Of a stretch of DNA of 57,818 bases, positions 5,324 to 45,775 are shown piece after piece. The stretch covers positions 1-57,818 of the forward strand of contig DXAJ01000034.1 in NCBI GenBank assembly GCA_019117085.1, in the 5' to 3' direction. Both the position numbers and the translations under genes were made by a program. Below the pieces are notes generated by a model. That model searched no databases. It had not been told where the DNA came from and saw nothing but the letters and a program-made list of their open reading frames with translations. Position 1 is the stretch's first letter; each line of letters opens with the position of its first letter. Origin of the DNA: Candidatus Gallimonas gallistercoris (GTDB lineage: Bacteria; Bacillota; Clostridia; Christensenellales; Borkfalkiaceae).

Positions 5324-6046
5324 TTATTGCAACTTATCCGTCAAGGCGCGGCAGGCGCTCGTGCCGAGAAGAGAAGGCAAAATTTCTTCACGGGTGCCGA
5401 CGCGCTCGATCTTGCCCGCGGAGAGCACCACGATCTTATCGGCAATGTTCAAGATACGCTCCTGATGGGAGATGATGACGATGCTCCCCTGCGACTTTGC
5501 ATACATTTTTTCGAACACCGAGATGAGGTTTTGGAAGCTCCAAAGATCGATGCCCGCTTCAGGTTCATCGAAGACGGAAAGAGAAGTACCGCGGGCGAGG
5601 ACGGTCGCGATCTCGATGCGCTTTAATTCGCCCCCCGAAAGAGAAGCGTTGACTTCGCGGTCGATATAGTCGCGCGCGCAAAGACCCACTTCGGAGAGAT
5701 AGCCGCACGCCTCCCCCACCGTGATGTGCTTGCCCGCCGCGAGCGAGATGAGGTCTTTTACCGTGATGCCCTTGAAGCGCACGGGCTGCTGGAAGGCAAA
5801 CGAGATGCCCCGCCTTGCGCGCTCGGTGACGGAAAGAGGCGTGATGTCCTTCCCGTTGAAAAGAAGCTTGCCGCCCGTGGGCGTGAGGATGCCCGCAATG
5901 ATCTTGGCGAGCGTGCTCTTGCCGCTGCCGTTGGGGCCCGTGATCGCCACGAAGCGTTCGTCGATCGTGAGGGAGACGTCGTTTAAAATGCGCTTTCTTT
6001 GGCCGTTCTCCTCCACTTCGAAGGTGATATTTTGAAGTTCTAACAT
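5324..6046 (-). CDS. sufC: SufC-like Fe-S assembly ATPase
   Basis: Walker A GPNGSGKST, LSGGELKR, Walker B VFDEPEAGID. Start moved to MLELQNITF (ATG 6046, GAGAGGAA RBS); the track ORF extends to 6115. Confidence 0.85.
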   Translation of the reverse strand: MLELQNITFEVEENGQRKRILNDVSLTIDERFVAITGPNGSGKSTLAKIIAGILTPTGGKLLFNGKDITPLSVTERARRGISFAFQQPVRFKGITVKDLISLAAGKHITVGEACGYLSEVGLCARDYIDREVNASLSGGELKRIEIATVLARGTSLSVFDEPEAGIDLWSFQNLISVFEKMYAKSQGSIVIISHQERILNIADKIVVLSAGKIERVGTREEILPSLLGTSACRALTDKLQ

Positions 6047-6157
6047 AGAATTCCTCTCTTTTTTCCGAAGGAGCAGTATAGCATATCGGGAGGAAAATGT
6101 CAAGCCTTTCTGCATGGGCGCGGCGCGGGGCGAGGAGGTGACGGGCAGCCCCGGCGT

Positions 6158-6231
6158 TTACTCCCTCAGTCCTGTTGCCGACATTCGTCGGACAACAGGA
6201 CAGCTCCCTCGAGAGGGCGCCTAAAATATGG
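6158..6231 (+). repeat. Module-A hairpin repeat copy
   Basis: TTACTCCCTCA + GTCCTGTTGCCGAC-attc-GTCGG(A)CAACAGGAC + AGCTCCCTCGAGAGGGCGCCTAAAAT. A degenerate second module follows to about 6290. Confidence 0.85.
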
Positions 6232-6348
6232 AAACTCCTTCAGTCTCGCTGCGCTCGACAGCTCCGCTGCGACGAGGAGCCGAGAGGATGGCGGGAAGAT
6301 GTTTTGGTAAATGTCAATAGTAAATGCGAAAAAAGTCCAAAAAAATTT

Positions 6349-6859
6349 TTATGAAAGCTTTGCAAGCTGCTCGTTGAACCGTTCATCAGGCGTATCATAA
6401 TCCAAAACGCCCCGAGGATAGTTGTTAAGCCATGTTTCAACAACACAAAGTCCTTACACAAATACTGGTAGAAAAGGGCATCTGTTTTCGCTTAATCTCT
6501 CCCAATGCCGCCGATACCGTCCACCCTTCATCGACAATTTTATGCTCCAGATATTCAGCAAGGGCATGATCCTTCCCGATTTTCAAAGGAGCGCCTTTGG
6601 CCTGAAGAAATGCCCGATATTTCTGTTCGGCAATGTCGGGGCTATAAGTCTCTTTATAACGATAGTACTTCTCATATCCGTAATGATCCCACCGAGACTC
6701 TTTTTTCAAATAAACGCCACGCTTTATTTCACGATACACAGTACTTATATGCACCCCAATACTCTCTGCAATCTGTTTTACGGACATCTTCATTTTCAGC
6801 CCAGCTTCAATCTTCAAACGATCTGTAAAAGATAAATGCTTAAAGCGTTCTCTTGCCAT
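6349..6859 (-). pseudogene. IS30-family transposase remnant (HTH N-terminus joined to the extreme C-terminus; DDE core deleted)
   Basis: MARERFKHLSFTDRLKIEAGLKMKMSVKQIAESIGVHISTVYREIKRG... (140 aa, GGGAGG RBS) stops at 6437. A shifted frame then reads VETWLNNYPRGVLDYDTPDERFNEQLAKLS*, a typical IS30 C-terminal tail. The region is visibly AT-rich. Confidence 0.75.
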
Positions 6860-7105
6860 TGCTATACCTCCCATACAATAAAACCATTCCCATGCAAATA
6901 AAAAATGAGCGATGCAAAGCAACTGCCTTACATCGCACGTTCGCACGAATCTCAAATAGCAATTACAAAAATTAAATTTAATCAGATAATCCGTCTTTAA
7001 TTTTACAAGGAGAATAACAATGAAACTTACCAAGAAAAACATTGAACAGCTGCGCAAAGAGAGCAGCAACAAAGTTTTCAAGAAGGTATAAAAATATGGA
7101 GAACG

Positions 7106-8233
7106 ATGATGAAAAAACCCGGTATTGTATTGCTTACGATGGCGGCAGCCGCCCTCGGTCTGGCTGCGTTCGCTGCCTGCAAAGACGATGAGACGCCCCC
7201 CATGGAACATACCCATGCTTACAGTTCGTGGGTAGTCGTCGATGAGCCCACCTGCACGGAAGAAGGCTTGCGCGAACGCACCTACTCCTGCGGGGAGAAA
7301 GAGACGGAACAGATCGTGGCACTCAATCATACGCCGGGCGAAGCGGTCAGAGAGAACGAAAAGGCGCCCACTTGCACCGAGAAAGGCTCGTATGAAGAGG
7401 TCGTTTACTGCACCGTATGCGAAGAAGAAGTGAGCCGCAAGACGATCACGGTGGACGCCCTCGATCATACGCCGGGCGAAGCGGTCAGAGAGAACGAAGT
7501 CGCCGCGACCTGCACGACGGCGGGCTCCTATGAAGAAGTCGTTTACTGCACCGTTTGCGAAGAAGAAGAGCACACCTGCTCCCGCTGCCAAGAAACGGAG
7601 ACACAGACGATCGACGCGCTCGATCATGCGTGGAGCGCATACTCCTTCGACGAGACCAACCATTGGAGAGAATGCACCCGTGCAGGATGCTCTGCCAAAG
7701 AAGAAGCGAAGCATTCTTTCACCCGCAACACCTGTGAGACCTGCGGCTATGCCTTCTACTCCGAAGGGCTGTTATACGAAGTCAACAACGATACCGATAC
7801 TGTTACCATCACCGGAGAGGGAACTTGCAGCGACACGACGATCTATATCCCCGCCGTCATCGATGAAAAGCCGGTGACCGAGATCGGTAATTATGCGTTT
7901 TTAAGATGTACCTCGCTTAAAGAGGCCGTCATCCCCCAAAGCGTCACCTCGATCGGCAGCTCTGCATTTAATTATTGTACCTCGCTTAAAGAGATCGTCA
8001 TTCCCGAGGGCGTCATCTCGATCAGTAACTCTGCACTTAATTATTGTACCTCGCTTAAAGAGGTCGTCATCCCCCAAAGCGTCACCTCGATCGGTGATAG
8101 TGCGTTCGACGGGTGCGACGAGCTTACGACCGTCTATTACCGCGGCAGCAAGGAGCAGTGGGACAGTATCATCGGTTCGAACAAAGACGCGCTCACAGGG
8201 GTTCAAATCATATGTGACTATAAGGGTGAATAA
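7106..8233 (+). CDS. Surface lipoprotein with Cys-rich (CxxC) repeats and C-terminal BspA-type leucine-rich repeats
   Basis: Signal peptide plus lipobox (LGLAAFAAC). Duplicated HTPGEAVRENE..TC....GSYEEVVYCTVCEEE modules, then 3-4 LRR units IP..V.SIG..AF..C.SLKE..IP. Confidence 0.8.
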   Translation: MMKKPGIVLLTMAAAALGLAAFAACKDDETPPMEHTHAYSSWVVVDEPTCTEEGLRERTYSCGEKETEQIVALNHTPGEAVRENEKAPTCTEKGSYEEVVYCTVCEEEVSRKTITVDALDHTPGEAVRENEVAATCTTAGSYEEVVYCTVCEEEEHTCSRCQETETQTIDALDHAWSAYSFDETNHWRECTRAGCSAKEEAKHSFTRNTCETCGYAFYSEGLLYEVNNDTDTVTITGEGTCSDTTIYIPAVIDEKPVTEIGNYAFLRCTSLKEAVIPQSVTSIGSSAFNYCTSLKEIVIPEGVISISNSALNYCTSLKEVVIPQSVTSIGDSAFDGCDELTTVYYRGSKEQWDSIIGSNKDALTGVQIICDYKGE

Positions 8234-8270
8234 ACCGTGAACGGCGGGCGGGATGGGAAGCACCGGCGGG

Positions 8271-8343
8271 GACTCCCTCAGTCTCATCAGCGGCGTTCGC
8301 CGCGTGATGAGACAGCTCCCTCGAGAGGGCGCCTATAATGAGG
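8271..8343 (+). repeat. Module-A hairpin repeat copy
   Basis: GACTCCCTCA + GTCTCATCAGCGGCG-tt-CGCCGC(G)TGATGAGAC + AGCTCCCTCGAGAGGGCGCCTATAAT. A second bulged hairpin module lies at 8344-8389. Confidence 0.85.
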
Positions 8344-8414
8344 TGACTCCTTCCGCCGCGCGCCCGCTCTTGCGGGCGGCGCAGAGCCCTTTTGATAAAT
8401 TTATATGGGAGATA

Positions 8415-8443
8415 TTGACTTAGCGGGCAAAGTATGATAGACT
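8415..8443 (+). promoter_or_regulatory. Sigma-70-like promoter for the second LRR lipoprotein gene
   Basis: TTGACT, 17-nt spacer, TGaTAGACT (extended -10), about 45 nt upstream of ATG 8489. Confidence 0.5.
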
Positions 8444-8488
8444 GAAACTACGATGTGAACTGCATAGTGAATAAAAATATGGAGAACG

Positions 8489-9862
8489 ATGATGAAAAAA
8501 CACGGTATTGTATTGCTTGCGATGGCGGCCGCGGCCCTCGGTCTGGCTGCGTTCGCTGCCTGCGGGCTTGCCGCCTGCAACGATACGGGCGATACGCCCG
8601 GCGGGGATACGCCCGGCGGGAATGTACCCGGCGGGAATGCGGGGAACGAATACCTCGTCTTTGAAACGCTTGCCGACGGGAGCTTGCAGGTCTCTGCCGA
8701 CAGCGGCAAGGAGATGCCCGAAGAGATCGTCATCCCGAGCGAATACGAAGGAAAGCCCGTGACCGCCGTCAAAGCGCAGGGGTTTGCCCTGAACCGCGCA
8801 GAGGGTTTGGAGCGCGTCGTCATTCCCGAGGGCGTGAAGAGCATCGGCGAGAACGCCTTTTATAACCTCATTACACTCGAAAGCGCCGTGCTGCCCGATT
8901 CTCTCATAGAAATGGGCATGTATGCCTTTGCCGGCTGTACCGCCCTTCAAGACATCGAATTCGGGAGCGGACTCAGCATCATTCCCGTGGGCGCGTTCGG
9001 CGGCTGCGCGATCGCTTCCCTCACACTGCCCGAAACGGTGACGGACATCTACTTTGACGCCTTCCGCGGCTGCCGCGAGCTTACCGGCGTGACGCTGCCC
9101 GACAGCGTGACCTATCTCGGGAGCTCCGTCTTTGCAGAGTGCGAGGCGCTTACCGAGGTGACGCTGCCCAAAGGACTCACTTCCATCGAAAACGCGACGT
9201 TCAAAGACTGCGGATCGCTTACTAAAATCGAGATCCCCGCGGGCGTGAAGAGCATCGGCAGTTCTGCCTTCGAAGGGTGCGCGCTCAAAGAGGTCGTGCT
9301 GCCCGACGGGGTCGAACGCATCGGCGACCGGGCATTCTACTATTGCGATGAACTTGCTTCCGTCGTCTTCCCCGACTCGATCTCTGAAATGGGCATGGAC
9401 GTGCTTTTCAGCACCGCCTATTACGACAATGAGGCGAATTGGAAGGACGGCGTGCTGTTTGCGGGCTGCCATCTTCTGGACGCAGACCGCGTGACGGGCG
9501 AGGGCTATACCGTGCCCAAAGGCACGCGCACCATTGCGGGCGGCGCGTTTGACCTTTCGGGAAGCCTGAAAAAGGGCATCGTGCTCAACGAAGAACTTGT
9601 GTATCTCGGGCGCGAGGCGTTCAAAGGCTGCGCCTTTGAGGAGATCGCGATCCCTGAGAGCGTGACGACGATCGAAGCGGACGCCTTCTTCGGGTGCGAC
9701 GAGCTCGAACGGGTCGTATTCGAAGACCCCGAAAATTGGACGCGGTATATGACGCCCGAGGACGTGCGTGAGCCCGTCCCCGCTGCCGAGCTCGCCGACC
9801 CGACGGGAGCCGCCGTGCTTTTGAAGGATAGCTATCGCCTCTTTACGCTGGAAAAACAATGA
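8489..9862 (+). CDS. BspA-type leucine-rich-repeat surface lipoprotein
   Basis: Lipoprotein signal (LGLAAFAACGLAAC), a GDTPGG low-complexity linker, then about 12 LRR units (IP..V..IG..AF..C..L..V.LP). Confidence 0.85.
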   Translation: MMKKHGIVLLAMAAAALGLAAFAACGLAACNDTGDTPGGDTPGGNVPGGNAGNEYLVFETLADGSLQVSADSGKEMPEEIVIPSEYEGKPVTAVKAQGFALNRAEGLERVVIPEGVKSIGENAFYNLITLESAVLPDSLIEMGMYAFAGCTALQDIEFGSGLSIIPVGAFGGCAIASLTLPETVTDIYFDAFRGCRELTGVTLPDSVTYLGSSVFAECEALTEVTLPKGLTSIENATFKDCGSLTKIEIPAGVKSIGSSAFEGCALKEVVLPDGVERIGDRAFYYCDELASVVFPDSISEMGMDVLFSTAYYDNEANWKDGVLFAGCHLLDADRVTGEGYTVPKGTRTIAGGAFDLSGSLKKGIVLNEELVYLGREAFKGCAFEEIAIPESVTTIEADAFFGCDELERVVFEDPENWTRYMTPEDVREPVPAAELADPTGAAVLLKDSYRLFTLEKQ

Positions 9863-12430: not shown

Positions 12431-12604
12431 CTTCTGCCTCCTCTCGCTGCGTTTCCCTTATTTTATACCCGCGTGATAAAGAGAACTTCATCGCAGGGTG
12501 AATTTTTCGTGAAATGTTCACATATTGGACGTTGTTTTTTGTTATTATAGCATATCCTGCGACGATTGGCAAGGGTCGAGAACAAAATTTTATCGAACAT
12601 TTGT

Positions 12605-12633
12605 TTGACAATAGGCAGGCGACGTGCTATAAT
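12605..12633 (+). promoter_or_regulatory. Perfect consensus sigma-70 promoter: TTGACA, 17-nt spacer, TATAAT
   Basis: TTGACA at 12605-12610 and TATAAT at 12628-12633. The radical-SAM ATG (12640) lies 7 nt after the -10, at the expected transcription start. Confidence 0.6.
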
Positions 12634-12639
12634 GAAGGC

Positions 12640-13989
12640 ATGATCTCGGAGGAAAAGCTGAAAATTCTGACGGAGAGCGCAAAGTACGACGTTTCGTGCT
12701 CCTCTTCGGGAAGCGGCAGAAAGAACGGCGGCGGCATGGGAAACGCGGCGCCCGCGGGGTGCTGCCATTCCTTCACGCCCGACGGGAGATGCATCTCGCT
12801 GTTGAAAATTTTGCTCTCCAACCGCTGCATCTATTCCTGCCGCTACTGCCCCAACCGCGCGGACGTCGACGTGCCGCGCGCTTCGGCGACGCCCGAAGAG
12901 ATCGCCGAACTGACCCTCGACTTTTACAAGCGCAACTATATCGAAGGGCTGTTCCTCTCCTCCGCCGTGGAAAAGACGCCCGACTTTACGATGGAGCGGC
13001 TGCTTGCCACCGTAAAGCTGCTGCGCACGAAATACCGCTTTCACGGATATATCCACTTGAAAGGCATCCCGCGGGCGGATGCGGGGCTCGTTTCGGAGGC
13101 CGCGAAATACGCCGACCGCATGAGCTATAATCTGGAGCTCCCCACCGAGGCGAGTTTGAAACTTTTGGCGCCGCAGAAATCGACGGAGAGTTTGCTCTCC
13201 CCCATGCGGCAGCTCGTGAAGGAGAAGGCGGAGTTCAAAGAAGAACACAAGAAGGGGCATTTTTTGCCCGCGGGGCAGACGACGCAGCTTATCGTGGGCG
13301 CGAGCCCCGAGCCCGACAGCCGCATCGTGCGGCTTTCCGAGGCGCTCTATCAAAAGATGGGGCTCAAACGCGTGTACTATTCTTCCTATGTGCCCGTCGT
13401 GCAGGACAGTCTGCTGCCGACGCTCCCCGTGGGACAGCTGCGGGAGCACCGCCTCTATCAGGCGGACTGGCTGCTCCGCTTTTACGGCTTTACGGCGGAG
13501 GAGATCGCGCCCGAGGGGGAAAACCTGCCCCTCGAATACGACCCGAAGTGCGCGTGGGCGCTGAGGAACCCGCAGTGTTTCCCCGTGGAAGTGAATACCG
13601 CGCCCCTCGAGATGCTGCTGCGTGTGCCGGGCATCGGCGGCAGAGGGGCGTATAAGATCACCGAGGCAAGGCGGTATGCGGCGCTCGATTTTAGCGACCT
13701 GAAGCGGATGCGCATCGTTTTAAAACGGGCGAAGCACTTCATCACCTGCAAAGGAAAGTATTTGGGCGCCAAGGATGAGCGCGCCGTGAAGGGACTGCTC
13801 GCGCTGGGCGCAAGGCAGGACGAGGCGCGGCAGCTGAGTTTGTTCGACGAGCCCGAACGCTGGGGCTCGGGCGGCGCGGGCGCGGCGGGCATGTTGAGCG
13901 GCGCGGGCGAAGGGCGGACGCTCTCCCCTGCCGTGCAGCTTTTGGGCACGCGGGAGACGGCGCTTGCCGCGCTGACGGGAGAACTGTGA
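12640..13989 (+). CDS. Putative DNA modification/repair radical SAM protein (TIGR03916-like)
   Basis: N-terminus KLKILTESAKYDVSCSSSG, radical-SAM cluster motif CIYSCRYCPNR, RNYIEGLFLSS, and a C-terminal HhH-like region. Start moved to MISEEKL. Confidence 0.8.
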   Translation: MISEEKLKILTESAKYDVSCSSSGSGRKNGGGMGNAAPAGCCHSFTPDGRCISLLKILLSNRCIYSCRYCPNRADVDVPRASATPEEIAELTLDFYKRNYIEGLFLSSAVEKTPDFTMERLLATVKLLRTKYRFHGYIHLKGIPRADAGLVSEAAKYADRMSYNLELPTEASLKLLAPQKSTESLLSPMRQLVKEKAEFKEEHKKGHFLPAGQTTQLIVGASPEPDSRIVRLSEALYQKMGLKRVYYSSYVPVVQDSLLPTLPVGQLREHRLYQADWLLRFYGFTAEEIAPEGENLPLEYDPKCAWALRNPQCFPVEVNTAPLEMLLRVPGIGGRGAYKITEARRYAALDFSDLKRMRIVLKRAKHFITCKGKYLGAKDERAVKGLLALGARQDEARQLSLFDEPERWGSGGAGAAGMLSGAGEGRTLSPAVQLLGTRETALAALTGEL

Positions 13990-13993
13990 GGCT

Positions 13994-14707
13994 ATGATCT
14001 ATCTGACAGAGGAAACGAGGGACGGGGTTTTGACGGCGCTGCTTGCCGCGTGGGGCGACGAAGAAGCCCTGCTCCTGCCCAAAGACGAGCGCCCGTTGGG
14101 GCCGTGCGTGGAAGTTGTGCCCGACCCGCAAAAGGCGAGAAGAGCACTCTGCCGCTTTCAAGAGCTCGACGGCGGGTGCGTGCGCGAGATAGACCGCCTT
14201 CTGCGCTGCGGGGGCGAGGGGCACATGCAGACCGCCTTCCGCTATCTGCTGCTCATTGCAAAGCGGGGCGGGCCTGTGCGCGGGATGCTCTCTCACCCCG
14301 ATGTACTCAAAGCGGAACAGGCGCTAAGGCGCGTTGCTCACGAGATCGACCGCATGAAGGGGTTCGTGCGCTTTCGGGAAAGTGCGAGCGGCGCGCTGTA
14401 CGCTCCCCTTTCGCCCGACAACGACATCGTGGACATTTTGGCACGGCACTTTTCAAAGCGGCTGCCCGAATATCCCTTCGTTCTTCACGACGTCAAGCGA
14501 CAAAAAGCAGCCGTGTGGGACGGGGCGCACCTCTTCCTTGCGCCCTTGAAACAAGCCGAAGTGATGCTCTCCGCCGACGAGGAGGGTTGGCAGAAGCTGT
14601 GGAAGACGTATTTTTCCGCCGTCAACATCCCTTCGCGCGAGCGCATCAAACAGCAGAACGGATATCTTCCCAAGCGGTACCGAAAATTCATGACGGAATT
14701 CGAATGA
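13994..14707 (+). CDS. DUF4130 / TIGR03915-like 'probable DNA metabolism protein' (partner of the radical SAM protein; no fused UDG domain)
   Basis: 237 aa, starting 4 nt after the radical SAM gene. Characteristic KGFVRF...Y.P....DI..IL..HF..R....PF.L.D, ending LPKRYRKFMTEF. Confidence 0.7.
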   Translation: MIYLTEETRDGVLTALLAAWGDEEALLLPKDERPLGPCVEVVPDPQKARRALCRFQELDGGCVREIDRLLRCGGEGHMQTAFRYLLLIAKRGGPVRGMLSHPDVLKAEQALRRVAHEIDRMKGFVRFRESASGALYAPLSPDNDIVDILARHFSKRLPEYPFVLHDVKRQKAAVWDGAHLFLAPLKQAEVMLSADEEGWQKLWKTYFSAVNIPSRERIKQQNGYLPKRYRKFMTEFE

Positions 14708-17077: not shown

Positions 17078-19180
17078 TTAGGAGTGGTCGTGACCGGCGT
17101 GAGGATCGTTCTCCGATCCGTCGAGGATGAGATCCTGATAGCGCTTCTCGTACACGGTGACGCAGGTGTCGTTGTCGTAGGAGTTGATGATCCCCGTCTG
17201 GCGGTCGGTCGCGTACGTCGTGAGGTTGGAAGATTTGAGCGCTTCGTAGTAGAGGTTGGAGAAGGTCCCCTCCTCTTCGATCTCGTTCCAATCGAAGGTG
17301 TAAGGCGTGTTCCCCGCGAAGGTGAACGTGCAGTAGATGATGTGCCAGCCGTAATCGGTGGGAACGACGACGATCGTGCCCGCGCCGCCGCGCACCGCTT
17401 CCTGCGCCGCATACTCGAATTCCTTCATGTAGTCGGTCGAGTTGGGGGAGATGGCATAGCCAAGGTAGCTGTTGAGCCCTGCCGTATCGGTGTTGTAGGC
17501 GAAGGAGAGCTCGTTCATCATGGACATGACGTTGTTCTCGTCCGAACCCGCGACGAACACGTTGTTGGCGTTGAAATCGGAAAGTTCGTTGACCTTCGCT
17601 TCGTAGTAGACGAAGGAGGAATAGTCCACCGTGCCGTCTTCGTTGTAGTATTCGGAGAGAGCCTTATCGTAATAGCTTTCGGATGCGGAGACCGTCTTTT
17701 CAAGCGTGTAGCCGTTGGCGGAGAGATAGCCTTCCATCTCGGAAAGGAACCCGTCGATCGTGATCTTCTCGGGCGTGATGGTAAACTCCGTCTTGCCGTG
17801 CTCGCCCTCCGTCTTATCGACGCTGCCGTTGTAGGTGTATTTGCCGTAGTAGTTGGGGATGGGCTCGTACTGCGCATTCTCGCCCGAGGACTTCTTCATG
17901 TTGTTTTCGAAGAAGAGGTACTCTCTTTCGGCATTGCCGCCCGTGTAAGCGTTATCCGCTTCTTCCGCGACGAAGGAATAGTCGTTATGCCCCGTGAACC
18001 AGGTGCGGCGCTGATCGGTGGCGCGGACGCTTTCGAGGAGGGAAGCGCGCGTCATGAACTTGTTGCCGTTCTTATCCCCTCTGTCGGCAGGCGCTTCATC
18101 GAGAGCGGCGGACTGCGTCGAGCTGAAAGGAAGCAGGATGTTGAGGACGAAGCCGTAGTTTTCGTCGGGCGCGTAGAGAACGAAGGAGGTATCCGAAACG
18201 CTGTCGAGCGCCGATTCGAAAGACGTCGTATCGGAAGAGAAGGTCTCCTGCTGTGATGCAAGCGTTTCTTCGTACTTCGACTTCACCCATTCTTCGGTGA
18301 TGACGCCCTCGGCTTCCGCTTCGAACGCTTCGCCGAGCTTTTCGATCACGGCGTCTTCATAGGTGCTCTTGCGCTGGGTATGGAAGTAGGAAAGCGAGGT
18401 AACGTCGCTCGTGTTTTCGCCCTTTTCGATGAGGCCGTAGCTGTTGAGGTTGGAAAGAAGGCGCTTGTAAGCGCGGGTACGCGTCGAGGGAGTGGAGCGC
18501 TCCACCGTCTCGTAAGAGCCGCAGTCGGACGCGGAATTGGAACCCGTATATACCTTGTAGGCGGGATCGATGAAATCTTCGTCGACGGTATCCACGCCCG
18601 TGGGGGTCGTGCGCGCATCCTCGTGATCGTGCTCGTCTTCAAAGTCGATGATGGCAGTTTCGAGCGAGTCGATCGCCGAGTTGAAGGCGACCTTAGCTTC
18701 GTACTCCGCCATCGCCTGCTCCTCTTCGTCGAGGAAGTAGGCAAGGCCCGCGATGTCCTTCTCCCCTTCTTCGGCTGCGTTCACCGCCGTTTCGTAGCCT
18801 TCGACGGTGTATTCGCCGCTCTTGAAGAAATATGCCTTGGCATACTGCAAATAGATGGCGCGGTTGACGAGGCTGTTTTTGATGAGTTCGTAAGTGTCGG
18901 CATAGCTGTAGCCGTAGGACTCGACATAGAGATAGCCGATGCTCATGAAGTTGGAAACGAGGTCGCGCTTGACGATCTCGAAAGGCTCGATGGCGTCTGC
19001 ATAAGCAGCATATTCGCCGCCCTCCGCGAACGCTTCGCTCTTCGTGATGTCGACTTCCGCAACGACTTGCGCGTAGTCCTTTTGAAGATCGGTGGAAACG
19101 AGGTCGCAGCCCGTGAGCGCGCCGAGCGCCATGACTGCCGCGATGCCCACTGCCGCCGTTTTTTTCCTGTTGAATGCCAT
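17078..19180 (-). CDS. Large lipoprotein, PrsA/SurA-like foldase with a parvulin-type domain apparently split by a large insertion
   Basis: Lipobox ALGALTGC. NYGFVLNILLPF...(long insert)...GLNSYLGYAISP...EFEYAA...GTIVVVPTDYGWHIIYC resembles a PpiC domain. Its position directly after mfd matches the mfd-prsA synteny of Clostridia. Confidence 0.55.
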   Translation of the reverse strand: MAFNRKKTAAVGIAAVMALGALTGCDLVSTDLQKDYAQVVAEVDITKSEAFAEGGEYAAYADAIEPFEIVKRDLVSNFMSIGYLYVESYGYSYADTYELIKNSLVNRAIYLQYAKAYFFKSGEYTVEGYETAVNAAEEGEKDIAGLAYFLDEEEQAMAEYEAKVAFNSAIDSLETAIIDFEDEHDHEDARTTPTGVDTVDEDFIDPAYKVYTGSNSASDCGSYETVERSTPSTRTRAYKRLLSNLNSYGLIEKGENTSDVTSLSYFHTQRKSTYEDAVIEKLGEAFEAEAEGVITEEWVKSKYEETLASQQETFSSDTTSFESALDSVSDTSFVLYAPDENYGFVLNILLPFSSTQSAALDEAPADRGDKNGNKFMTRASLLESVRATDQRRTWFTGHNDYSFVAEEADNAYTGGNAEREYLFFENNMKKSSGENAQYEPIPNYYGKYTYNGSVDKTEGEHGKTEFTITPEKITIDGFLSEMEGYLSANGYTLEKTVSASESYYDKALSEYYNEDGTVDYSSFVYYEAKVNELSDFNANNVFVAGSDENNVMSMMNELSFAYNTDTAGLNSYLGYAISPNSTDYMKEFEYAAQEAVRGGAGTIVVVPTDYGWHIIYCTFTFAGNTPYTFDWNEIEEEGTFSNLYYEALKSSNLTTYATDRQTGIINSYDNDTCVTVYEKRYQDLILDGSENDPHAGHDHS

Positions 19181-28268: not shown

Positions 28269-28792
28269 TGAAGCGCATCACCCTGCCCATGACCAAAGAG
28301 CAAAGAGAGAGCTTGCGCGCGGGAGACAGCGTGCTTCTTTCGGGCACCATCTACACGGCGCGGGACTGCGCGCACAAACGCATCTTTGCGCTCCTCGACG
28401 AGGGGAAAGAGCTCCCCTTCCCTCTTCAAGGCGCTTTCATCTACTATGCGGGCCCCTGCCCCGCGCCCGAAGGAAAGGTGTGCGGCAGCTGCGGGCCGAC
28501 GACTTCCGCCCGCATGAATTCGTTTGCACCGCGCCTTCTCGATCTCGGGCTTCAAGGCATGATCGGCAAAGGCGAGATGAGCGAGGAAGTGCGCGCGGCA
28601 TTGAAGCGCAATAAGGCGGTGTACTTTGCCGCCATCGGCGGGGCGGGCGCGACATACGGGAACGCCGTCAAACGCGCGGAGTGCGTCGCTTTCCCCGATC
28701 TTCTGAGCGAAGCGGTGCACAAGATGGAAGTGGAAGAATTTCCCCTCGTCGTCGCCATCGACAGCGAGGGCGGGAGCATCTATGACCGCTGA
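28265..28792 (+). CDS. Class I fumarate hydratase, beta subunit
   Basis: 175 aa; GD.VLLSG.IYTARD.AHKR, GP.TSARM, GKG motifs. 4-nt overlap with the alpha subunit gene. Confidence 0.85.
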   Translation: MMKRITLPMTKEQRESLRAGDSVLLSGTIYTARDCAHKRIFALLDEGKELPFPLQGAFIYYAGPCPAPEGKVCGSCGPTTSARMNSFAPRLLDLGLQGMIGKGEMSEEVRAALKRNKAVYFAAIGGAGATYGNAVKRAECVAFPDLLSEAVHKMEVEEFPLVVAIDSEGGSIYDR

Positions 28793-29684
28793 GCGCCTTG
28801 ACAGCCTTTCGAGGCGGCAACGCGCCCTCGTCAAACGGAAAACGCGGGGCGGGGCGTTCGCGCTTGCCTTTTTTGCGGTGTTTCTTTGCGTGCTCCTTTC
28901 CGTCGTCATCGGGATGGGGCTTGCGATGGCGGTCGTGGAAAATTCGGCGCGGTTCGTGCCCTCGTATGAAAAGCTCGACCTTACCCCCTATCTGGAAAAA
29001 GAGACGCTTTCCGAGGAAGATTACGAGCTTCTTTATCATCAGACGGGGCTGACGCGGCTCGGGGTTGACGCGCTCGAAGACAGGAGCGAACTTTTGGACT
29101 ATCAGGAGAATTTCTTCTTTGAGGGCGTGAAGACGCACGAGATGGCAGCCGAAACGACGCCCCGCTGCGTGCTCCAAACGGAGGAGGGAACGGGCTTTTA
29201 TGCGAAGGTCGTTCCTTTGCAGGAGGGCGACATCCTTGTGACTTCCACCTGTCATACCTTCGGCTGGCGCAACGGGCATGCCGCCATCGTCGTGGACGCA
29301 GAGAGCCGCCGCGTGCTCGAAGCCACCGGTCCCGGGAGCAAGAGTTCGCTCGGCACGGTGAATTGGTTCGCGCACGGGGCGAACTTCTTGGTGCTGCGCT
29401 TAAAAGACGCGAGCCGGGAAGAGCGGAAAGAGATCGCTTCCTGGGCAGGGAACAACCTGCGCGGCATCGAATATTCGCTGTTCACAGGGTTTTTCAACGC
29501 CAAAGATCAGAGCAGCGCCCCCGAGACGACGCATTGCAGCCACCTTGTATGGCAGGCGTTCAAGCGCTTCGGCTACGACATCGATTCGGACGGCGGACCG
29601 CTCGTCACCTGCAACGACATTGCGCGGAGCGAGCTTCTGGAAGTCGTGCAGGTGTACGGCTTCGACCCCGACGCGCTGTGGTGA
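28782..29684 (+). CDS. Membrane-anchored protein with a possible permuted papain-like (YiiX/C92, NlpC/P60 superfamily) domain
   Basis: One N-terminal TM. GDILVT...GHAAIVV (His) precedes THCSHLVWQAF (Cys), the order expected for permuted NlpC/P60 amidases. Assignment made by eye only. Confidence 0.4.
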   Translation: MTAERLDSLSRRQRALVKRKTRGGAFALAFFAVFLCVLLSVVIGMGLAMAVVENSARFVPSYEKLDLTPYLEKETLSEEDYELLYHQTGLTRLGVDALEDRSELLDYQENFFFEGVKTHEMAAETTPRCVLQTEEGTGFYAKVVPLQEGDILVTSTCHTFGWRNGHAAIVVDAESRRVLEATGPGSKSSLGTVNWFAHGANFLVLRLKDASREERKEIASWAGNNLRGIEYSLFTGFFNAKDQSSAPETTHCSHLVWQAFKRFGYDIDSDGGPLVTCNDIARSELLEVVQVYGFDPDALW

Positions 29685-36566: not shown

Positions 36567-37094
36567 ATGGAACTTTCGGCTGCAAGCAAAAACGGGACCG
36601 CCATTTTGTACCAGGAAAACTTTTGGACGGGCAAAAAGGCGCTCATCATCAACGGAACGCCCGCTACGAAGATCGGCAAAAAGCAATTCAGCTTTACGGC
36701 GGCGGACGGGAAGGCGACCTTCTACACCGTGCAGGGCAGTTTTATCAGCGGTGTGAAGGTGGAGATCTCCGACCCCAAGGAGACCGTTGTCCTCGCCCAA
36801 AACATGTGGTATGATTGGGTGATCCTCGTCCTCTCCCTTGTCGGCATCCTGCCAGGCGTCATCTTCTGCGGGGCGGTCGGCGGATTTTTCAGCGTGCTGT
36901 GCTGCTTCCTCGCCGCCGTCTTCAATATGACGATCGCCCGCTCCAAGATGAACTTTGCGCTGCGCCTGCTGCTGCAGATCGTCATCATCGCGCTCGCCAA
37001 TGCCGTTTGGGTCGGGCTGTGGTTCGTCATCGTCGTGCTGCTGCTCAACGCCACGCAGGGCACGGCGGCTGCGGCGATCGCTGCGGTGCTGTAA
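36567..37094 (+). CDS. Hypothetical membrane protein (about 85-aa soluble N-domain + 3 TM)
   Basis: GGGAGGG RBS 7 nt upstream. Clear hydrophobic helices, and coding-like composition on this strand only. No recognisable family. Confidence 0.6.
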   Translation: MELSAASKNGTAILYQENFWTGKKALIINGTPATKIGKKQFSFTAADGKATFYTVQGSFISGVKVEISDPKETVVLAQNMWYDWVILVLSLVGILPGVIFCGAVGGFFSVLCCFLAAVFNMTIARSKMNFALRLLLQIVIIALANAVWVGLWFVIVVLLLNATQGTAAAAIAAVL

Positions 37095-43940: not shown

Positions 43941-43974
43941 AAAAAAGAGCACGGAACTTCCGTGCTCTTTTTTT
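43941..43974. terminator. Strong bidirectional terminator shared by hydA (+) and the fibre-like gene (-)
   Basis: AAAAAA-GAGCACGG-aactt-CCGTGCTC-TTTTTTT. Confidence 0.8.
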
Positions 43975-44029: not shown

Positions 44030-45682
44030 TCAGATGACCGTCTTCCACGCGCACCAGCTTCCGCCCGAATAGTTGCGGATGCGGATGGCGCAGTCGCTCA
44101 TGAGCGAAAAGGCGACCTGCGTGATGTTGTTTCCCTCGTCCGCATGTGACATCGTGAGCAGGAACCAACGGCAGCTCGAAGCGCTGTTCTTATTGGAAGT
44201 CGGCGCGTTGTAACAGGGAAGGTCGCTCGACCCTTCCACATAATAACAGCCCGTGTCGTCGAGCGTGTTGAAGTTGCCGCCGTACCAGACGACGCTGCTG
44301 ATGGGGAGCTGCCGCTCGTTGTCGAGCAGCCCGAGCCCCAGATCGTTCTTGGAGATGGTGACGTCGCCCGTCTGTCCGTTGACGGAAGTCACCGCGCCCC
44401 CGCCGCCCGTAAAGGTTGGTTTGTCGGCGAGGTCGTTATAAGAACCCGTGAGCGCCACCTGCGCAAGGCCGAGATCGAACTTGCTGATGGTGACGTCGCC
44501 TGTCTGTCCGTTGACGGAGGTCACCGCGCTCTCGTCGTCCCCGCCCGTCAAGACAGGCTTATCGAGAAGGTCGTTATATGAGCCCGTAAGGGCGACGACC
44601 GCAAGCCCCAGATCGTTCTTGGAGATGGTGACGTCTCCCGTCTGCCCGTTGACGGAGGTCACCGCCGTACCCGCAAACGTGGGTTTATCGGCAAGGTCGT
44701 TATAAGAGCCCGTGAGCGCCACCTGCGCAAGGCCGAGATCGAACTTGCTGATGGTGACGTCTCCCGTCTGCCCGTTGACGGAAGTCACCGCGCTCTCGTC
44801 GTCTTCGCCCGTCGAGACGGGCTTATCGAGAAGATCGTTATATGAGCCCGTGAGGGCGACGACCGCAAGCCCCAGATCGTTCTTGGAGATGGTGACATCC
44901 CCCGTCTGCCCGTTGACGGAAGTCACCGCGCCCTCTTCGGGCGTGTCTTGAAGATCGTTATATGAACCCGTGAGCGCAACGACCGCAAGCCCCAGATCGT
45001 TCTTCGAGATGGTGACGTCGCCCGTCTGTCCGTTGACGGAGGTCACCGTGCCCTCGCCGCCCCCGCCGCCCGACGTGACGGGGGTGAGGACGCCGTCCGC
45101 GTAGTAACAGAGCGTATCGCCGCCCGCCGTCCGCTTGATGAAGATGCCGCCGTCCGCAAGCGAAGCGCTCGGCGTCGTCTGCCCTTCTTCGCCCACCTCG
45201 ACGATCTGCTTCCCGCCCGTGACGAACCCGTAGGCGTTGACGTCCACGGCGGAATAAGTGCCCGAGGTCACCTTCTGTTCGAACGCGGAAAGATCGTATT
45301 TGTTGAGAAACTCCAAAATTTGTTCGTGCAGCGAGGCAGGGGGCGATTCCTCCCCTTCGCAATAAGCCCCCGCAAGGCAGCGAAGGCGCACAAAAGAGCT
45401 TGCGATGCGCCCTCCCGCGCCGTCCGCGCTGTAAACGCCGACGAGCGCCGTGTCGCAGTCGGGCGACAAAACGGCGGGCATATCGCAGGAAGTACCCGTA
45501 AAGAGCTGCTCGCGGCAGCCGCCCGCCCAAAGGACGACGGCGACGCGCTGAGAATAGTCCGCCCACTCGCCGTCGAAATCAAATTGCAGCCGATAGCTGT
45601 TTTCGTTGAAGGATACGAGCTCGGAAAAATCGGTCTCCGCGCGCTTGCCCCGCACCCTGATGAGAATGGTCTGCTGTGCCAT
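44030..45682 (-). CDS. Phage tail-fibre / receptor-binding-protein-like protein with six tandem repeats and a knob-like C-terminal domain
   Basis: Repeats (A/T)VTSVNGQTGDVTISK(N/F)DLGLA.VALTGSYNDL.DKP match the VNG.TG.V.L...LGL...SGSYNDL..KP motif typical of Firmicute phage fibres. No signal peptide. Start moved to MAQQTIL (45682, GGGAGG RBS). Confidence 0.7.
   Translation of the reverse strand: MAQQTILIRVRGKRAETDFSELVSFNENSYRLQFDFDGEWADYSQRVAVVLWAGGCREQLFTGTSCDMPAVLSPDCDTALVGVYSADGAGGRIASSFVRLRCLAGAYCEGEESPPASLHEQILEFLNKYDLSAFEQKVTSGTYSAVDVNAYGFVTGGKQIVEVGEEGQTTPSASLADGGIFIKRTAGGDTLCYYADGVLTPVTSGGGGGEGTVTSVNGQTGDVTISKNDLGLAVVALTGSYNDLQDTPEEGAVTSVNGQTGDVTISKNDLGLAVVALTGSYNDLLDKPVSTGEDDESAVTSVNGQTGDVTISKFDLGLAQVALTGSYNDLADKPTFAGTAVTSVNGQTGDVTISKNDLGLAVVALTGSYNDLLDKPVLTGGDDESAVTSVNGQTGDVTISKFDLGLAQVALTGSYNDLADKPTFTGGGGAVTSVNGQTGDVTISKNDLGLGLLDNERQLPISSVVWYGGNFNTLDDTGCYYVEGSSDLPCYNAPTSNKNSASSCRWFLLTMSHADEGNNITQVAFSLMSDCAIRIRNYSGGSWCAWKTVI
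44324..45049. repeat. In-frame tandem DNA repeats inside the fibre-like gene (units of 120-138 nt; a ~264-nt two-unit block occurs twice)
   Basis: Repeat starts at codons 226, 266, 312, 354, 400 and 444 of the track ORF. The near-identical antisense ORFs 44448..44705 and 44712..44951 reflect the higher-order duplication. Confidence 0.9.
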
Positions 45683-45748
45683 AACATTCCTCCCGTTGTC
45701 TTTGCCCTCATGATAGCACAAAAGGCAGAAAACAGGCGTTCACATGAC

Positions 45749-45775
45749 AAAAACCGCGGAAATTTCCGCGGTTTT
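45749..45775. terminator. Bidirectional terminator after purB
   Basis: AAAAA-CCGCGGAAATTTCCGCGG-TTTT, a perfect palindrome. On the minus strand it is followed by TTTTT. Confidence 0.7.

What the first reader, a model, noticed from the sequence alone, without database searches (positions are those of the whole stretch)
44030..45682. Orphan, terminator-bracketed phage-tail-fibre-like gene with recombinogenic tandem repeats in a core-metabolism neighbourhood
The protein has three parts. (i) A ~210-aa N-terminal domain with no signal peptide or TM. (ii) Six tandem 40-46-aa repeats, (A/T)VTSVNGQTGDVTISK(N/F)DLGLA(V/Q)VALTGSYNDL(L/A)DKP..., arranged A-[A-B]-[A-B]-A'; the ~264-nt two-unit block recurs almost base for base. 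(iii) A ~95-aa Cys/Trp-containing C-terminal globular domain. I recognise the VNG.TG.V.L...LGL...(S/T)GSYNDL..KP unit from tail fibres and receptor-binding proteins of Firmicute phages and tailocins, and the C-terminus resembles their distal knob. No terminase, capsid, tape-measure, baseplate, lysis or integrase gene is present anywhere in the 57.8 kb. The neighbours are hydABC and purB-ppiase-dCMP deaminase. The gene sits alone between two strong bidirectional terminators (43941-43974, 45749-45775), and its composition looks like the flanks. This pattern fits a domesticated receptor-binding module for a particle encoded elsewhere, since GTAs such as RcGTA and some tailocins keep fibre genes at separate loci. 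It also fits a phage-derived adhesin. The DNA-level repeat identity predicts length variation through unequal recombination.
Basis: partly seen in the sequence, partly recalled or inferred. Interest (0 to 1): 0.7.

Follow-up and report, generated by a model that had tools for sequence, protein, structure and literature searches.

The report
Domesticated stand-alone phage-fibre gene
A gut Clostridia bacterium (Candidatus Gallimonas group) keeps a single phage-tail-fibre-like gene, with no other phage genes nearby, at the same chromosomal spot next to purB across many related species; the gene evolves fast and changes length by gaining and losing repeats, so it looks like a viral receptor-binding protein the host has kept for its own use, though that use is still unknown.

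Summary
A 550-aa gene on the minus strand (44030-45682) has its own conserved promoter and Shine-Dalgarno site. It lies between two strong bidirectional terminators, flanked by hydCBA and purB-cyclophilin-dCMP deaminase. No phage structural gene was found among about 40 ORFs scanned across the 57.8 kb.

All parts look phage-like:
- The repeats hit tail-fibre PHROGs and proteobacterial phage tail fibres.
- The N-terminal beta-sandwich belongs to a large phage virion-protein family.
- The C-terminal domain folds like the knob of R-pyocin and staphylococcal-phage receptor-binding proteins.

The gene is not a recent prophage remnant. Orthologues sit directly downstream of purB in 15 GTDB species (chicken and rabbit MAGs). 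GC3 is native and dN/dS is 0.2-0.5. Promoter elements are conserved.

The gene evolves far faster than its flanks: 61-79% against 93-100% amino-acid identity. Distant orthologues keep the N-domain but carry other tips, such as Gp10_C plus a small extra ORF. Conspecific alleles carry 1-8 repeats.

The function is not shown. My best guess is a trimeric fibre supplied in trans to a phage-derived particle encoded elsewhere. The rivals are a free surface or spore fibre, or an anti-phage decoy. I rate it a new variant of a known kind, of moderate to high interest.

The parts
45749..45775 (.). Bidirectional intrinsic terminator (AAAACCGCGG-AAATTT-CCGCGGTTTTT). It ends purB and insulates the fibre gene from it.
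   Evidence: Folds at -20.7 kcal/mol (minus strand) and -17.4 kcal/mol (plus strand), z -6.2/-4.7. The hairpin is conserved, with compensatory stem changes, in orthologous loci.
45741..45750 (-). Conserved upstream element TTGTCATGTG (family consensus TTTTTG(T/G)CA(T/C)(G/A)TA), 29-30 nt upstream of the -10. Its role is unknown.
   Evidence: Present in all orthologous loci aligned, including L023, which lacks the purB terminator. The spacing is too long for a sigma-A -35 (inference).
45710..45718 (-). Extended -10 promoter element TGcTATCAT (sigma-A type).
   Evidence: TA..AT is invariant and TGn is frequent across 16 aligned loci. It lies about 28 nt upstream of the start codon. The promoter assignment is an inference from the consensus.
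45689..45694 (-). Shine-Dalgarno sequence GGGAGG, 6 nt before the ATG.
   Evidence: Read from the sequence; GGAGG is conserved in all loci.
44030..45682 (-). Fibre-like CDS of 550 aa (stop codon 44030-44032).
   Evidence: There are 678 homologues. dN/dS is 0.2-0.5 and GC3 is 0.79.
45368..45682 (-). N-terminal beta-sandwich 'anchor' domain (aa 1-105). A predicted helix follows at aa 118-127.
   Evidence: AF2 pLDDT is 70-91. In 686 library proteins of 125-1071 aa the match lies at or near the N-terminus. Distant members hit phrog_19695 and phrog_25979 and carry collagen, beta-helix or tail-fibre distal parts. There is a weak hit to the Butyrivibrio phage Ceridwen protein that lies downstream of TMP-Dit-Tal. 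Foldseek gives 71 viral hits with E<1e-3, plus the TP901-1 and phi812 baseplates.
45068..45280 (-). Conserved beta module (aa 135-205; GTYSAVDVNAYGFVTGGKQIVEVGEEGQTTPSASLADGG...), followed by a Gly5 linker.
   Evidence: It is 55-69% identical to the extreme C-terminus of many phage-like proteins (sequences) and 58.8% identical to the C-end of an Anaeroplasmataceae phage protein. Those proteins hit tail-fibre PHROGs.
44312..45046 (-). Six tandem stalk repeats (aa 213-457). Units are 40/46/42/46/44 aa plus a truncated sixth, each starting VTSVNGQTGDVTISK.
   Evidence: TRF and unit table. PHROG hits include minor tail and tail fibre families at E 1e-15 to 1e-9. The units are 40-42% identical to Xanthomonas and Burkholderia phage tail fibres. 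There is a weak match to the monocin FtbO stalk. Copy number ranges from 1 to 8 in conspecific alleles.
44033..44311 (-). C-terminal knob (aa 458-550), a Cys/Trp-rich beta-sandwich and the presumed receptor-binding tip.
   Evidence: The AF2 model has pLDDT 85.6, rising to 84-97 over the knob. Foldseek PDB top hits are all phage or tailocin RBPs: phi812 baseplate, R1/R2 pyocin fibre, phage K gp144, 80alpha, P68 and phi11 RBPs (probability 0.96-1.0, E 1e-3 to 0.2). P, W, Q, S, D, R, W, W are invariant across 19 sequences.
43941..43974 (.). Bidirectional intrinsic terminator shared with the convergent hydA gene.
   Evidence: Folds at -24.6/-24.8 kcal/mol, z -5.8/-7.1, with A- and T-runs on both sides.

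Best explanation
The gene is a long-domesticated, vertically inherited phage fibre (receptor-binding-protein-type) gene that the Gallimonas-like Clostridia lineage keeps as an independent, functional transcription unit.

**Shown**
- The gene is monocistronic, with its own conserved sigma-A-type extended -10 element, Shine-Dalgarno site and flanking terminators.
- Its product has five parts: a phage virion-anchor-type N-terminal beta-sandwich; a conserved beta module; a Gly linker; a variable number of 40-46-aa stalk repeats of the VNGxTG/SYNDLxDKP type found in phage tail fibres; and a C-terminal knob with the fold of R-pyocin and staphylococcal-phage receptor-binding tips.
- It is under purifying selection but evolves several times faster than its flanks.
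- Its distal part has been replaced in some lineages.
- Repeat number differs among conspecific strains.

**Inferred**
- The protein forms a trimeric fibre. It lacks any export signal, so it is probably made in the cytoplasm.
- There it would be attached through its N-domain to a phage-derived particle encoded elsewhere. That particle could be a tailocin or GTA-like particle, or a resident prophage virion, and the attachment point could be head or tail.
- The fibre would be released by lysis, and the knob would then bind a surface ligand on target cells.
- Unequal recombination between repeats would tune fibre length, and recombination with phage genes would swap tips.
For: **Phage affinity of each part**
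- Repeats: PHROG tail families at E 1e-15 to 1e-9 and annotated tail fibres of Xanthomonas and Burkholderia phages.
- N-domain: 686 relatives, in most of which the match is N-terminal, with diverse fibre-type distal parts; 71 BFVD structure hits with E<1e-3; and phage contexts in Ceridwen, L031 and L032.
- Knob: every Foldseek hit with probability above 0.8 is a phage or tailocin RBP or fibre.

**Long residence and function**
- The gene lies directly downstream of purB in 15 GTDB species, down to about 80% PurB identity.
- GC3 is 0.79, like its neighbours.
- dN/dS is 0.20-0.28 for the N-domain and 0.1-0.5 for the C-domain.
- Promoter, SD and terminator are conserved.
- No relative was found in IMG/VR or INPHARED for the family-specific N- or C-domain patterns.

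**Fast, host-range-like evolution**
- N-domain identity is 68-79% and C-domain identity 61-75%, while the flanking proteins are 93-100% identical.
- dS exceeds that of the flanks.
- Tips are swapped at the same locus: Gp10_C tips with an extra small ORF in L023 and L029.

**Length variation**
- Alleles carry 1, 3, 4, 5, 6, 7 or 8 repeats while the N- and C-domains are 98-100% identical. Flanks are 98-99% identical in nucleotides, placing the alleles in one species.

**No export signal**.

**Precedent**
- RcGTA keeps its attachment genes (rcc00171, rcc01079/1080) at loci separate from the structural cluster, and those genes evolve faster than the cluster (PMC5026251).
Against: - No particle genes were seen. 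The 57.8-kb window and all ±10-kb flanks are free of capsid and tail genes. Whole genomes could not be scanned, so the partner is hypothetical.
- All known tailocins keep their fibres inside the cluster (general knowledge).
- A housekeeping-type promoter is unexpected for a component that is only useful at lysis.
- Structure matches have modest E-values (1e-3 to 1e-2 against PDB).
- There is no sequence-level hit to any solved structure or to any Pfam or NCBIfam family.
- Trimerisation was not modelled.
- All repeat-number alleles come from short-read metagenome assemblies, so some may be collapsed.
Confidence: 0.45

Rival explanations
1. The protein is a free-standing host fibre that needs no viral particle. 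It would be a cell-surface or spore-surface appendage analogous to the BclA exosporium filament: an N-terminal anchor, a length-polymorphic repeat stalk and a trimeric C-terminal knob. It would be made without a signal peptide, for example in the mother cell, and deposited on the surface to mediate adhesion.
For: - The architecture is parallel to BclA (PMC10470788, listed).
- There is no signal peptide.
- The gene is monocistronic, with its own conserved promoter and an unexplained conserved upstream element.
- Vertical inheritance at a housekeeping locus fits a host function.
- In one related genome the gene sits immediately upstream of spoIIIAA-AH, so at least part of the clade sporulates.
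- No particle genes were found anywhere that was searched.
Against: - The conserved -10 is sigma-A-like, and no clean sigE or sigK promoter could be read.
- There are no collagen repeats and no TNF/C1q-like tip; the best structural matches are phage RBP knobs.
- The N-domain family is otherwise found in phage structural modules.
- Tip swapping with phage-type modules plus putative chaperones implies continued exchange with the phage gene pool.
- No spoVT-sized gene follows mfd in the window, which is a weak hint against sporulation.
- Without a signal peptide, a route to the vegetative cell surface is missing.
Confidence: 0.2
2. The protein is a host defence or host-range modifier. Because its N-domain mimics the anchor of fibres of phages infecting this lineage, it would be incorporated into the virions of infecting or induced phages. 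It would then either poison assembly and adsorption, or retarget the particles.
For: - The N-domain is homologous (27-35% identity) to a widespread phage anchor module, phrog_19695.
- A constitutive-type promoter fits a standing defence.
- Both the N- and C-domains diverge rapidly, with excess dS, as expected in an arms race.
Against: - A decoy has no need for a conserved stalk and knob, yet the knob keeps eight invariant residues and has dN/dS below 0.5.
- No PADLOC or defence context was tested or seen.
- There is no precedent known to me.
- E-values jump from about 1e-25 for orthologues to about 1e-11 for the nearest phage N-domains. This argues against close mimicry of any current phage.
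Confidence: 0.1
3. The gene is a non-functional leftover of an ancient prophage that happens to persist, and the repeat-number differences are short-read assembly artefacts.
For: - The gene is isolated from any other phage gene.
- All alleles come from metagenome assemblies.
- Several contigs end inside the gene (L009, L012, L020), which shows that the repeats do trouble assemblers.
Against: - The ORF is intact in more than 100 clusters and 15 species. dN/dS is 0.2-0.5, and the promoter, SD and terminators are conserved.
- GC3 is native.
- The same allele lengths recur in independent assemblies: at least seven 90%-identity clusters of 590 aa and eight of 550 aa.
- The longest exact repeat is 53 nt, shorter than the k-mer of at least one assembly that yielded a 4-repeat allele (contig name k87_).
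Confidence: 0.04

Closest known systems
Receptor-binding 'knob' tips of R-type pyocin fibres (PDB 6CL5, 6CL6, 6CT8) and of staphylococcal phage RBPs (phi812 9EUF, phage K gp144 5M9F, 80alpha 6V8I, P68 6IAB, phi11 5EFV)
   Same: The C-terminal 93 aa are predicted with high confidence to adopt the same small beta-sandwich knob. All top Foldseek hits belong to this group. As in those proteins, the knob is the last domain of a fibre.
   Different: There is no detectable sequence similarity, and E-values are only 1e-3 to 0.2. The knob here carries five Cys residues. The gene is not inside a tailocin or phage cluster.
Stalk repeats of phage tail fibres and of the monocin side-fibre protein FtbO (PDB 9J1L; PMC11830787)
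   Same: The (V/I)xSVNGxxGxVxL... unit is repeated head to tail. In FtbO two such units form the trimeric O-stalk 1 and O-stalk 2. The same unit occurs in annotated tail fibres.
   Different: The match to FtbO is weak (E 0.24). The His-x-His iron-binding pairs of FtbO are absent, since the repeats contain no His. Here there are 1-8 nearly identical copies with a SYNDLxDKP tail.
RcGTA attachment genes encoded away from the structural cluster (rcc00171 tail fibre; rcc01079/rcc01080 head spikes; PMC5026251)
   Same: Both are fibre or attachment genes sitting alone among host genes, vertically inherited, evolving much faster than the core genes, and showing signs of exchange with phages.
   Different: There is no homology (no DUF2793 hit). 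The phylum is different. No GTA, or any particle cluster, is known or was found for this lineage. Co-regulation was not tested.
Lactococcal phage TP901-1 baseplate protein BppU (PDB 4V96) and phi812 baseplate proteins
   Same: An N-terminal beta-sandwich followed by a helix, serving as the attachment end of a modular fibre or RBP. Foldseek probability is 1.0 over about 150 columns.
   Different: The E-value is only about 3e-3. There is no Pfam BppU_N hit and no PDB hit with a family profile. The fold is a generic Ig/FN3-like sandwich. In one phage the homologous cassette follows the capsid gene rather than the tail genes.
BclA exosporium filament of Bacillus and Clostridioides (PMC10470788, PMC13188886)
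   Same: Both have a three-part architecture of anchor, length-polymorphic repeats and C-terminal globular trimer-type tip. Both lack a signal peptide and are stand-alone chromosomal genes.
   Different: The repeats are not collagen GXX triplets. The tip does not match TNF/C1q folds. No sporulation-type promoter was recognised.

Membership tests
Phage tail fibre / receptor-binding protein (structural class) | Sequence homology to proteins of phage virion fibre families | tested here: met
   The repeats hit phrog_23595, 2952, 26941, 35419 and 13892 (tail) at E 1e-15 to 4e-9. They are 40-42% identical to annotated tail fibres of Xanthomonas and Burkholderia phages.
Phage tail fibre / receptor-binding protein (structural class) | Distal receptor-binding domain with a known RBP fold | tested here: inconclusive
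   The top Foldseek PDB hits are all RBP knobs with probability 0.96-1.0, but E is 1.2e-3 to 0.2 and TM 0.4-0.55.
Phage tail fibre / receptor-binding protein (structural class) | Encoded within a virion structural gene module | tested here: not met
   No structural genes were found in 57.8 kb or in the ±10-kb flanks of more than 20 orthologous loci.
Phage tail fibre / receptor-binding protein (structural class) | Homotrimeric fibre physically attached to a virion or particle | not testable with these tools
   Only monomer prediction was available, and there are no particle data.
BppU-type baseplate upper protein | BppU_N (Pfam) N-terminal domain | tested here: not met
   No Pfam hit for the protein or for distant N-domain relatives. 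A family profile finds nothing in PDB sequences. The only link is fold-level similarity to 4V96 chains.
Pyocin-knob-type fibre tip | Knob beta-sandwich at the fibre C-terminus | tested here: inconclusive
   6CL6, 6CL5 and 6CT8 give probability 1.0 with E 8e-3 to 7e-2. The CDD knob model was not available to test at sequence level.
GTA accessory attachment gene (RcGTA rcc00171 / ghsAB type) | Located away from the particle's structural cluster and evolving faster than core genes | tested here: met
   The gene is an orphan. Its N- and C-domains are 61-79% identical while its flanks are 93-100% identical.
GTA accessory attachment gene (RcGTA rcc00171 / ghsAB type) | A GTA or particle structural cluster exists in the same genome and is co-regulated with the gene | not testable with these tools
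GTA accessory attachment gene (RcGTA rcc00171 / ghsAB type) | Homology to rcc00171 (DUF2793) or GhsA/B | tested here: not met
   No such Pfam hit.
BclA-like exosporium fibre | Collagen-like GXX repeat region | tested here: not met
   The repeats are 40-46-aa VNGxTG units, and there is no Collagen Pfam hit.
BclA-like exosporium fibre | Mother-cell (sigE/sigK) promoter | tested here: inconclusive
   The conserved -10 is sigma-A-like (TGnTATCAT). The upstream conserved TTGTCATRTA element is unassigned.
Monocin FtbO-type stalk | His-x-His iron-coordinating hairpin tips | tested here: not met
   The only His residues are at positions 119 and 513, so none lie in the repeats. Sequence similarity to FtbO is E 0.24.

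The most novel reading that the evidence does not exclude
A whole clade of gut Clostridia (Candidatus Gallimonas and relatives in chickens and rabbits) has turned a phage fibre into a bona fide host gene that no longer belongs to any prophage. The gene keeps a fixed chromosomal address and its own conserved regulatory elements. Its tips are interchangeable and its length is adjustable. It would serve either as the targeting subunit of a so far undescribed GTA or tailocin of Clostridia with a multilocus 'genome', or as a non-viral surface or spore fibre.
Probability: 0.35. Interest if true: 0.8.

Novelty: new variant of a known kind. Interest (0 to 1): 0.6.

Why it matters
Phage receptor-binding proteins are normally studied as parts of phages or tailocins. 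This one has lived alone at a housekeeping locus across genus- to family-level divergence. It is kept intact by selection, yet it still diversifies like a host-range determinant.

If it arms a particle encoded elsewhere, it points to an unrecognised GTA or tailocin system in abundant, uncultured gut Clostridia. It would also extend the 'multilocus GTA genome' idea beyond Alphaproteobacteria. If it acts alone, it is a clear case of a viral adhesin being exapted as a bacterial surface or spore fibre.

Either way, the N-terminal anchor domain and the whole family are unannotated. Neither Pfam nor NCBIfam covers them, although hundreds of gut phage and prophage proteins contain the domain. The repeat array is also a natural strain-typing marker.

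Tried and rejected
- **Pfam, NCBIfam and PDB sequence searches.** The full protein and relatives gave nothing meaningful. The precomputed 'PF26227/PF20404/PF11576' tags on homologues are faint or bias hits within or next to the repeat region.
- **Profile of the N-domain family against PDB sequences.** No hit.
- **Word-index search with the C-domain alone.** Only three fragments were returned, so this search was wasted.
- **tblastn of the C-domain against INPHARED phages.** No match.
- **IMG/VR scans.** Patterns from the family N-domain, the window C-domain and a C-domain sub-alignment gave no confirmed relative. Alignment A2 was too diverse to derive patterns from.
- **First genome-contig scan with a single protein.** It found nothing. 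The alignment-based scan then succeeded.
- **Alternative promoter readings.**
  - Sigma-54: rejected because the GG of TGGCAC is not conserved in the Gallimonas group.
  - SigE or SigK, reading TCATRTA as a -35 or -10 box: rejected because no partner box lies at the right spacing.
  - A sigma-A -35 at TTGTCA: rejected because the 29-30-nt spacer is too long.
- **The small ORFs downstream of distant orthologues.** PHROG scans gave no functional annotation for the putative chaperones.
- **Prophage-remnant reading.** Rejected on synteny, selection and composition.
Full report
**1. What is there**

The finding corresponds to a real minus-strand gene.
- The ATG is at 45682 and the stop codon at 44030-44032, giving 550 aa.
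- A GGGAGG Shine-Dalgarno site lies 6 nt upstream of the ATG.

Tandem Repeats Finder reports a period-264 array (2.8 copies, score 1028) and a period-138 array (5.5 copies) at 44334-45067.

At protein level there are five complete units of 40, 46, 42, 46 and 44 aa. All begin VTSVNGQTGDVTISK. A sixth, truncated unit leads into the C-terminal domain (aa 213-457).

The A-[A-B]-[A-B]-A' arrangement is correct, but the DNA copies are not 'almost base for base'.
- The two-unit blocks are 243/270 identical.
- Unit cores share 60-77 of 81 nt.
- The longest exact internal repeat is 53 nt.
- Most differences are synonymous, so the protein repeat sequence itself is under constraint.

The protein has no signal peptide or membrane segment.

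Both flanking hairpins are strong terminators on either strand, at -17 to -25 kcal/mol with z -4.7 to -7.1.

The neighbours are glycogen phosphorylase and HydC/HydB/HydA on one side, and PurB, cyclophilin, dCMP deaminase and GroEL on the other.

I scanned about 40 GC3-supported ORFs across the whole window against Pfam. They were only housekeeping, transporter, regulator and LRR proteins, with no phage structural, lysis or integration genes.

GC3 of the gene is 0.79, indistinguishable from its neighbours.

**2. Is it phage-like?**

Yes, in every part, but with different strength of evidence.

*Repeats.* This is the clearest case at sequence level.
- They hit several PHROG tail families ('minor tail protein', 'tail fiber protein') at E 1e-15 to 4e-9.
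- By tblastn they are 40-42% identical to annotated tail fibres of Xanthomonas and Burkholderia phages. The unit is therefore widespread and not Firmicute-specific.
- The only solved structure with a weak match (E 0.24) is FtbO, the side-fibre protein of the Listeria F-type tailocin monocin. In FtbO, two such units form the trimeric stalks (PMC11830787).
- FtbO's iron-binding His pairs are absent here.

*N-terminal region.* A full HMMER scan of 1.8 billion representative proteins gave 686 relatives.
- Residues 1-130 match at or near the N-terminus of proteins of 125-1071 aa. Their distal parts are collagen repeats, right-handed beta-helices, Gp10_C domains or tail-fibre PHROG modules. This is the classic modular pattern of phage fibres.
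- Residues 131-184 (GTYSAVDVNAYGFVTGG...) are 55-69% identical to the extreme C-terminus of many other phage-like proteins.
- In Butyrivibrio phage Ceridwen, the homologous 708-aa protein lies after the tape measure, Dit-like and Tal-like genes and before the lysis genes.

*Structure models.* An AlphaFold2 model of the natural one-repeat allele matched 71 viral proteins in BFVD at E<1e-3, with a best E of 3e-10. In the PDB it matched T4 gp34, R-pyocin fibres, the TP901-1 baseplate (BppU-sized chains) and the phi812 baseplate, at E 6e-4 to 1e-2.

*C-terminal 120 aa.* A separate model has pLDDT 85.6. Its top eight matches are only receptor-binding proteins and fibres:
- phi812 baseplate
- R1 and R2 pyocin fibres
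- phage K gp144
- Pa193 tail fibre
- 80alpha

P68 and phi11 fibre and RBP chains follow at lower rank. Probabilities for the top matches are 0.85-1.0, but E-values are modest at 1e-3 to 0.2.

*Limits of this evidence.*
- Neither terminal domain has any Pfam, NCBIfam or PDB sequence-level match.
- The short (186-201 aa) phage homologues of the N-domain (phrog_19695) form a two-gene cassette with a phrog_13589/38337 protein.
- That cassette sits among tail genes in one phage contig but directly after the major capsid gene in another.
- Whether the anchor docks on a tail or on a head is therefore open.

**3. Is it a prophage remnant?**

No.

*Synteny.* An alignment-based scan of one genome per GTDB species found the gene in 15 species. 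All are uncultured Clostridia from chicken and rabbit guts, including Candidatus Gallimonas intestinavium.
- Wherever the upstream flank is available, except L021, the gene lies directly downstream of dCMP deaminase-cyclophilin-purB. In the Gallimonas-like genomes it sits between purB and hydA exactly as in the window.
- The synteny extends to genomes whose PurB is only about 80% identical.

*Regulatory region.* It is conserved across the family, in this order:
- the purB terminator, with compensatory stem changes
- a TTTTTG(T/G)CA(T/C)(G/A)TA element
- a 29-30-nt spacer
- an extended -10 (TGnTA..AT)
- GGAGG

*Selection.* Pairwise Nei-Gojobori estimates are:

| Region | dN/dS |
|---|---|
| Fibre N-domain | 0.20-0.28 |
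| Fibre C-domain | 0.1-0.5 |
| purB | 0.03-0.12 |
| hydA | 0.01-0.07 |

The gene is therefore under purifying selection but is much less constrained than its neighbours.

*No free-phage counterpart.* The family-specific N- and C-domain signatures were not found in IMG/VR or INPHARED. In the protein-library scan, E-values drop from about 1e-25 for orthologues to about 1e-11 for the nearest other relatives. This indicates long separate evolution from phage genes.

**4. How it evolves**

*Rate relative to flanks.* Between species the flanking proteins are 93-100% identical. The fibre's N-domain is 68-79% identical and its C-domain 61-75%.

*Excess synonymous divergence.* The fibre's dS is 0.65-0.9 for the N-domain and 0.6 to above 2 for the C-domain, against 0.13-0.55 for the flanks. 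This suggests allele replacement or ancient allelic lineages rather than just relaxed constraint.

*Tip swapping.* More distant orthologues keep the N-domain (46-53% identity) and the chromosomal address, but carry entirely different distal parts. One example is a T4 Gp10_C-type tip followed by a 148-169-aa ORF. The rabbit-MAG orthologues with the knob carry a conserved 81-82-aa ORF instead. Swapping the tip at a fixed locus is what phage host-range genes do.

*Repeat-number variation within the window's own species.* Flanks are 98-99% identical in nucleotides, and the N- and C-domain DNA is 99-100% identical.
- Alleles have 8, 6, 6 (a different unit set) and 4 repeats in four long contigs.
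- Across 26 protein clusters with at least 95% N-domain identity, the counts are 1, 3, 4, 5, 6, 7 and 8.
- Caveat: all data are short-read assemblies, and some contigs break inside the array.
- Two points argue that the variation is mostly real. The same lengths recur in independent assemblies. The longest exact repeat (53 nt) is below the k-mer of at least one assembly.

**5. Mechanism**

Shown:
- an independently transcribed, selected gene
- a product with a three- to five-part fibre architecture of phage ancestry
- fast tip evolution
- variable stalk length
- no export signal

Inferred: the product is a trimeric fibre whose knob binds a cell-surface ligand and whose N-domain docks on a partner.

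*Preferred reading (about 0.45).* The partner is a phage-derived particle encoded elsewhere, such as a tailocin, a GTA-like particle or a resident prophage. The fibre would be assembled in the cytoplasm and released by lysis. The precedent is RcGTA. Its attachment genes lie at separate loci, evolve faster than the structural cluster, and show phage-mediated exchange (PMC5026251).

*Weaknesses.* No particle genes have been seen, and the promoter looks constitutive.

*Rivals.*
- A free surface or spore fibre analogous to BclA (about 0.2). One related genome has the gene next to spoIIIA, but no sporulation-type promoter is evident.
- A decoy or retargeting subunit for infecting phages (about 0.1).
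- A functionless remnant (below 0.05; contradicted by section 3).

**6. Comparison and novelty**

The protein works like a phage or tailocin receptor-binding fibre. Its closest structural relatives are the R-pyocin and staphylococcal-phage knobs, the FtbO-type stalk repeats, and BppU-like or other Ig-like anchors.

It fails the contextual criterion of membership, because it is not part of a virion gene module. It also has no sequence-level membership in any curated family.

Exact-phrase literature searches for an orphan, stand-alone or domesticated tail-fibre gene found nothing, and neither search that touched this lineage described such a gene.

I rate it a new variant of a known kind: a domesticated, stand-alone, length-variable phage fibre gene conserved across a clade of gut Clostridia. 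Interest is 0.6. It would be higher if a multilocus particle system or a non-viral role is demonstrated.

Noticed in passing
window 45741-45750 (minus strand) and the equivalent position in L001-L029: A conserved element TTTTTG(T/G)CA(T/C)(G/A)TA lies 29-30 nt upstream of the fibre gene's -10 in every orthologous locus, even where the purB terminator is absent (L023). The spacing is too long for a -35 box, and it gives no clean match to sigma-54, sigE or sigK. It may be an operator.
   Followed up: partly
window 45131-45292 (aa 131-184 of the fibre protein): This segment is 55-69% identical to the extreme C-terminus of many otherwise unrelated phage-like proteins (e.g. P0153, P0157, and an Anaeroplasmataceae phage protein). 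That is far closer than any other part of the protein is to phage sequences. It may be a recently exchanged or highly constrained junction module.
   Followed up: partly
window 44030-45682 versus L026, L027, L028 and L001-L013: Within the species, the N- and C-domain DNA is 99-100% identical while the flanks are 98.0-98.9% identical. Between species, the gene's dS (0.65 and above) exceeds that of flanking purB and hydA (0.13-0.55). The pattern suggests allele replacement between lineages plus a recent within-species sweep.
   Followed up: partly
L005 12836-13084; L025 12152-12400; L030 2381-2626: A conserved 81-82-aa ORF (KVFVEVTAKF..REGG..PL...DGR...) immediately follows the knob-type fibre gene in rabbit-gut MAG lineages but is absent from the window. 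It has no PHROG annotation. It may be a tip-specific accessory protein or chaperone.
   Followed up: partly
L023 10001-13992; L029 10001-11550: Orthologues that keep the N-domain and the chromosomal address carry a T4 Gp10_C-type tip instead of the repeats and knob. A 148-169-aa ORF (MRIF(D/N)..KT...) follows them. In L029 the pair sits directly upstream of the spoIIIAA-AH sporulation operon.
   Followed up: partly
L031 10001-11771; L032 8194-9693: In phage contigs, short (193-201 aa) homologues of the N-domain (phrog_19695) are always followed by a phrog_13589/38337 protein. The cassette lies after the tape-measure and tail genes in one phage, but directly after the major capsid gene in another. 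The anchor may therefore be head- or tail-associated.
   Followed up: partly
window 6001-9862: A low-GC stretch (0.45-0.53, against about 0.58 elsewhere) overlaps the first of two BspA-type leucine-rich-repeat (LRR_5) genes (7106-8233 and 8489-9862, + strand). It may be an acquired surface-protein islet. An LRR_5 protein also lies just downstream of the fibre homologue in L023 and L024.
   Followed up: no
window 17078-19180 (-), 28782-29684 (+), 36567-37094 (+): Three well-supported ORFs (GC3 0.75-0.82) of 700, 300 and 175 aa have no Pfam match. The 700-aa ORF sits directly downstream of mfd, where spore-formers often have spoVT.
   Followed up: no
window 12514-14707 (+): An adjacent pair of genes encodes a radical-SAM protein and a DUF4130 protein, next to a two-component system.
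   Followed up: no
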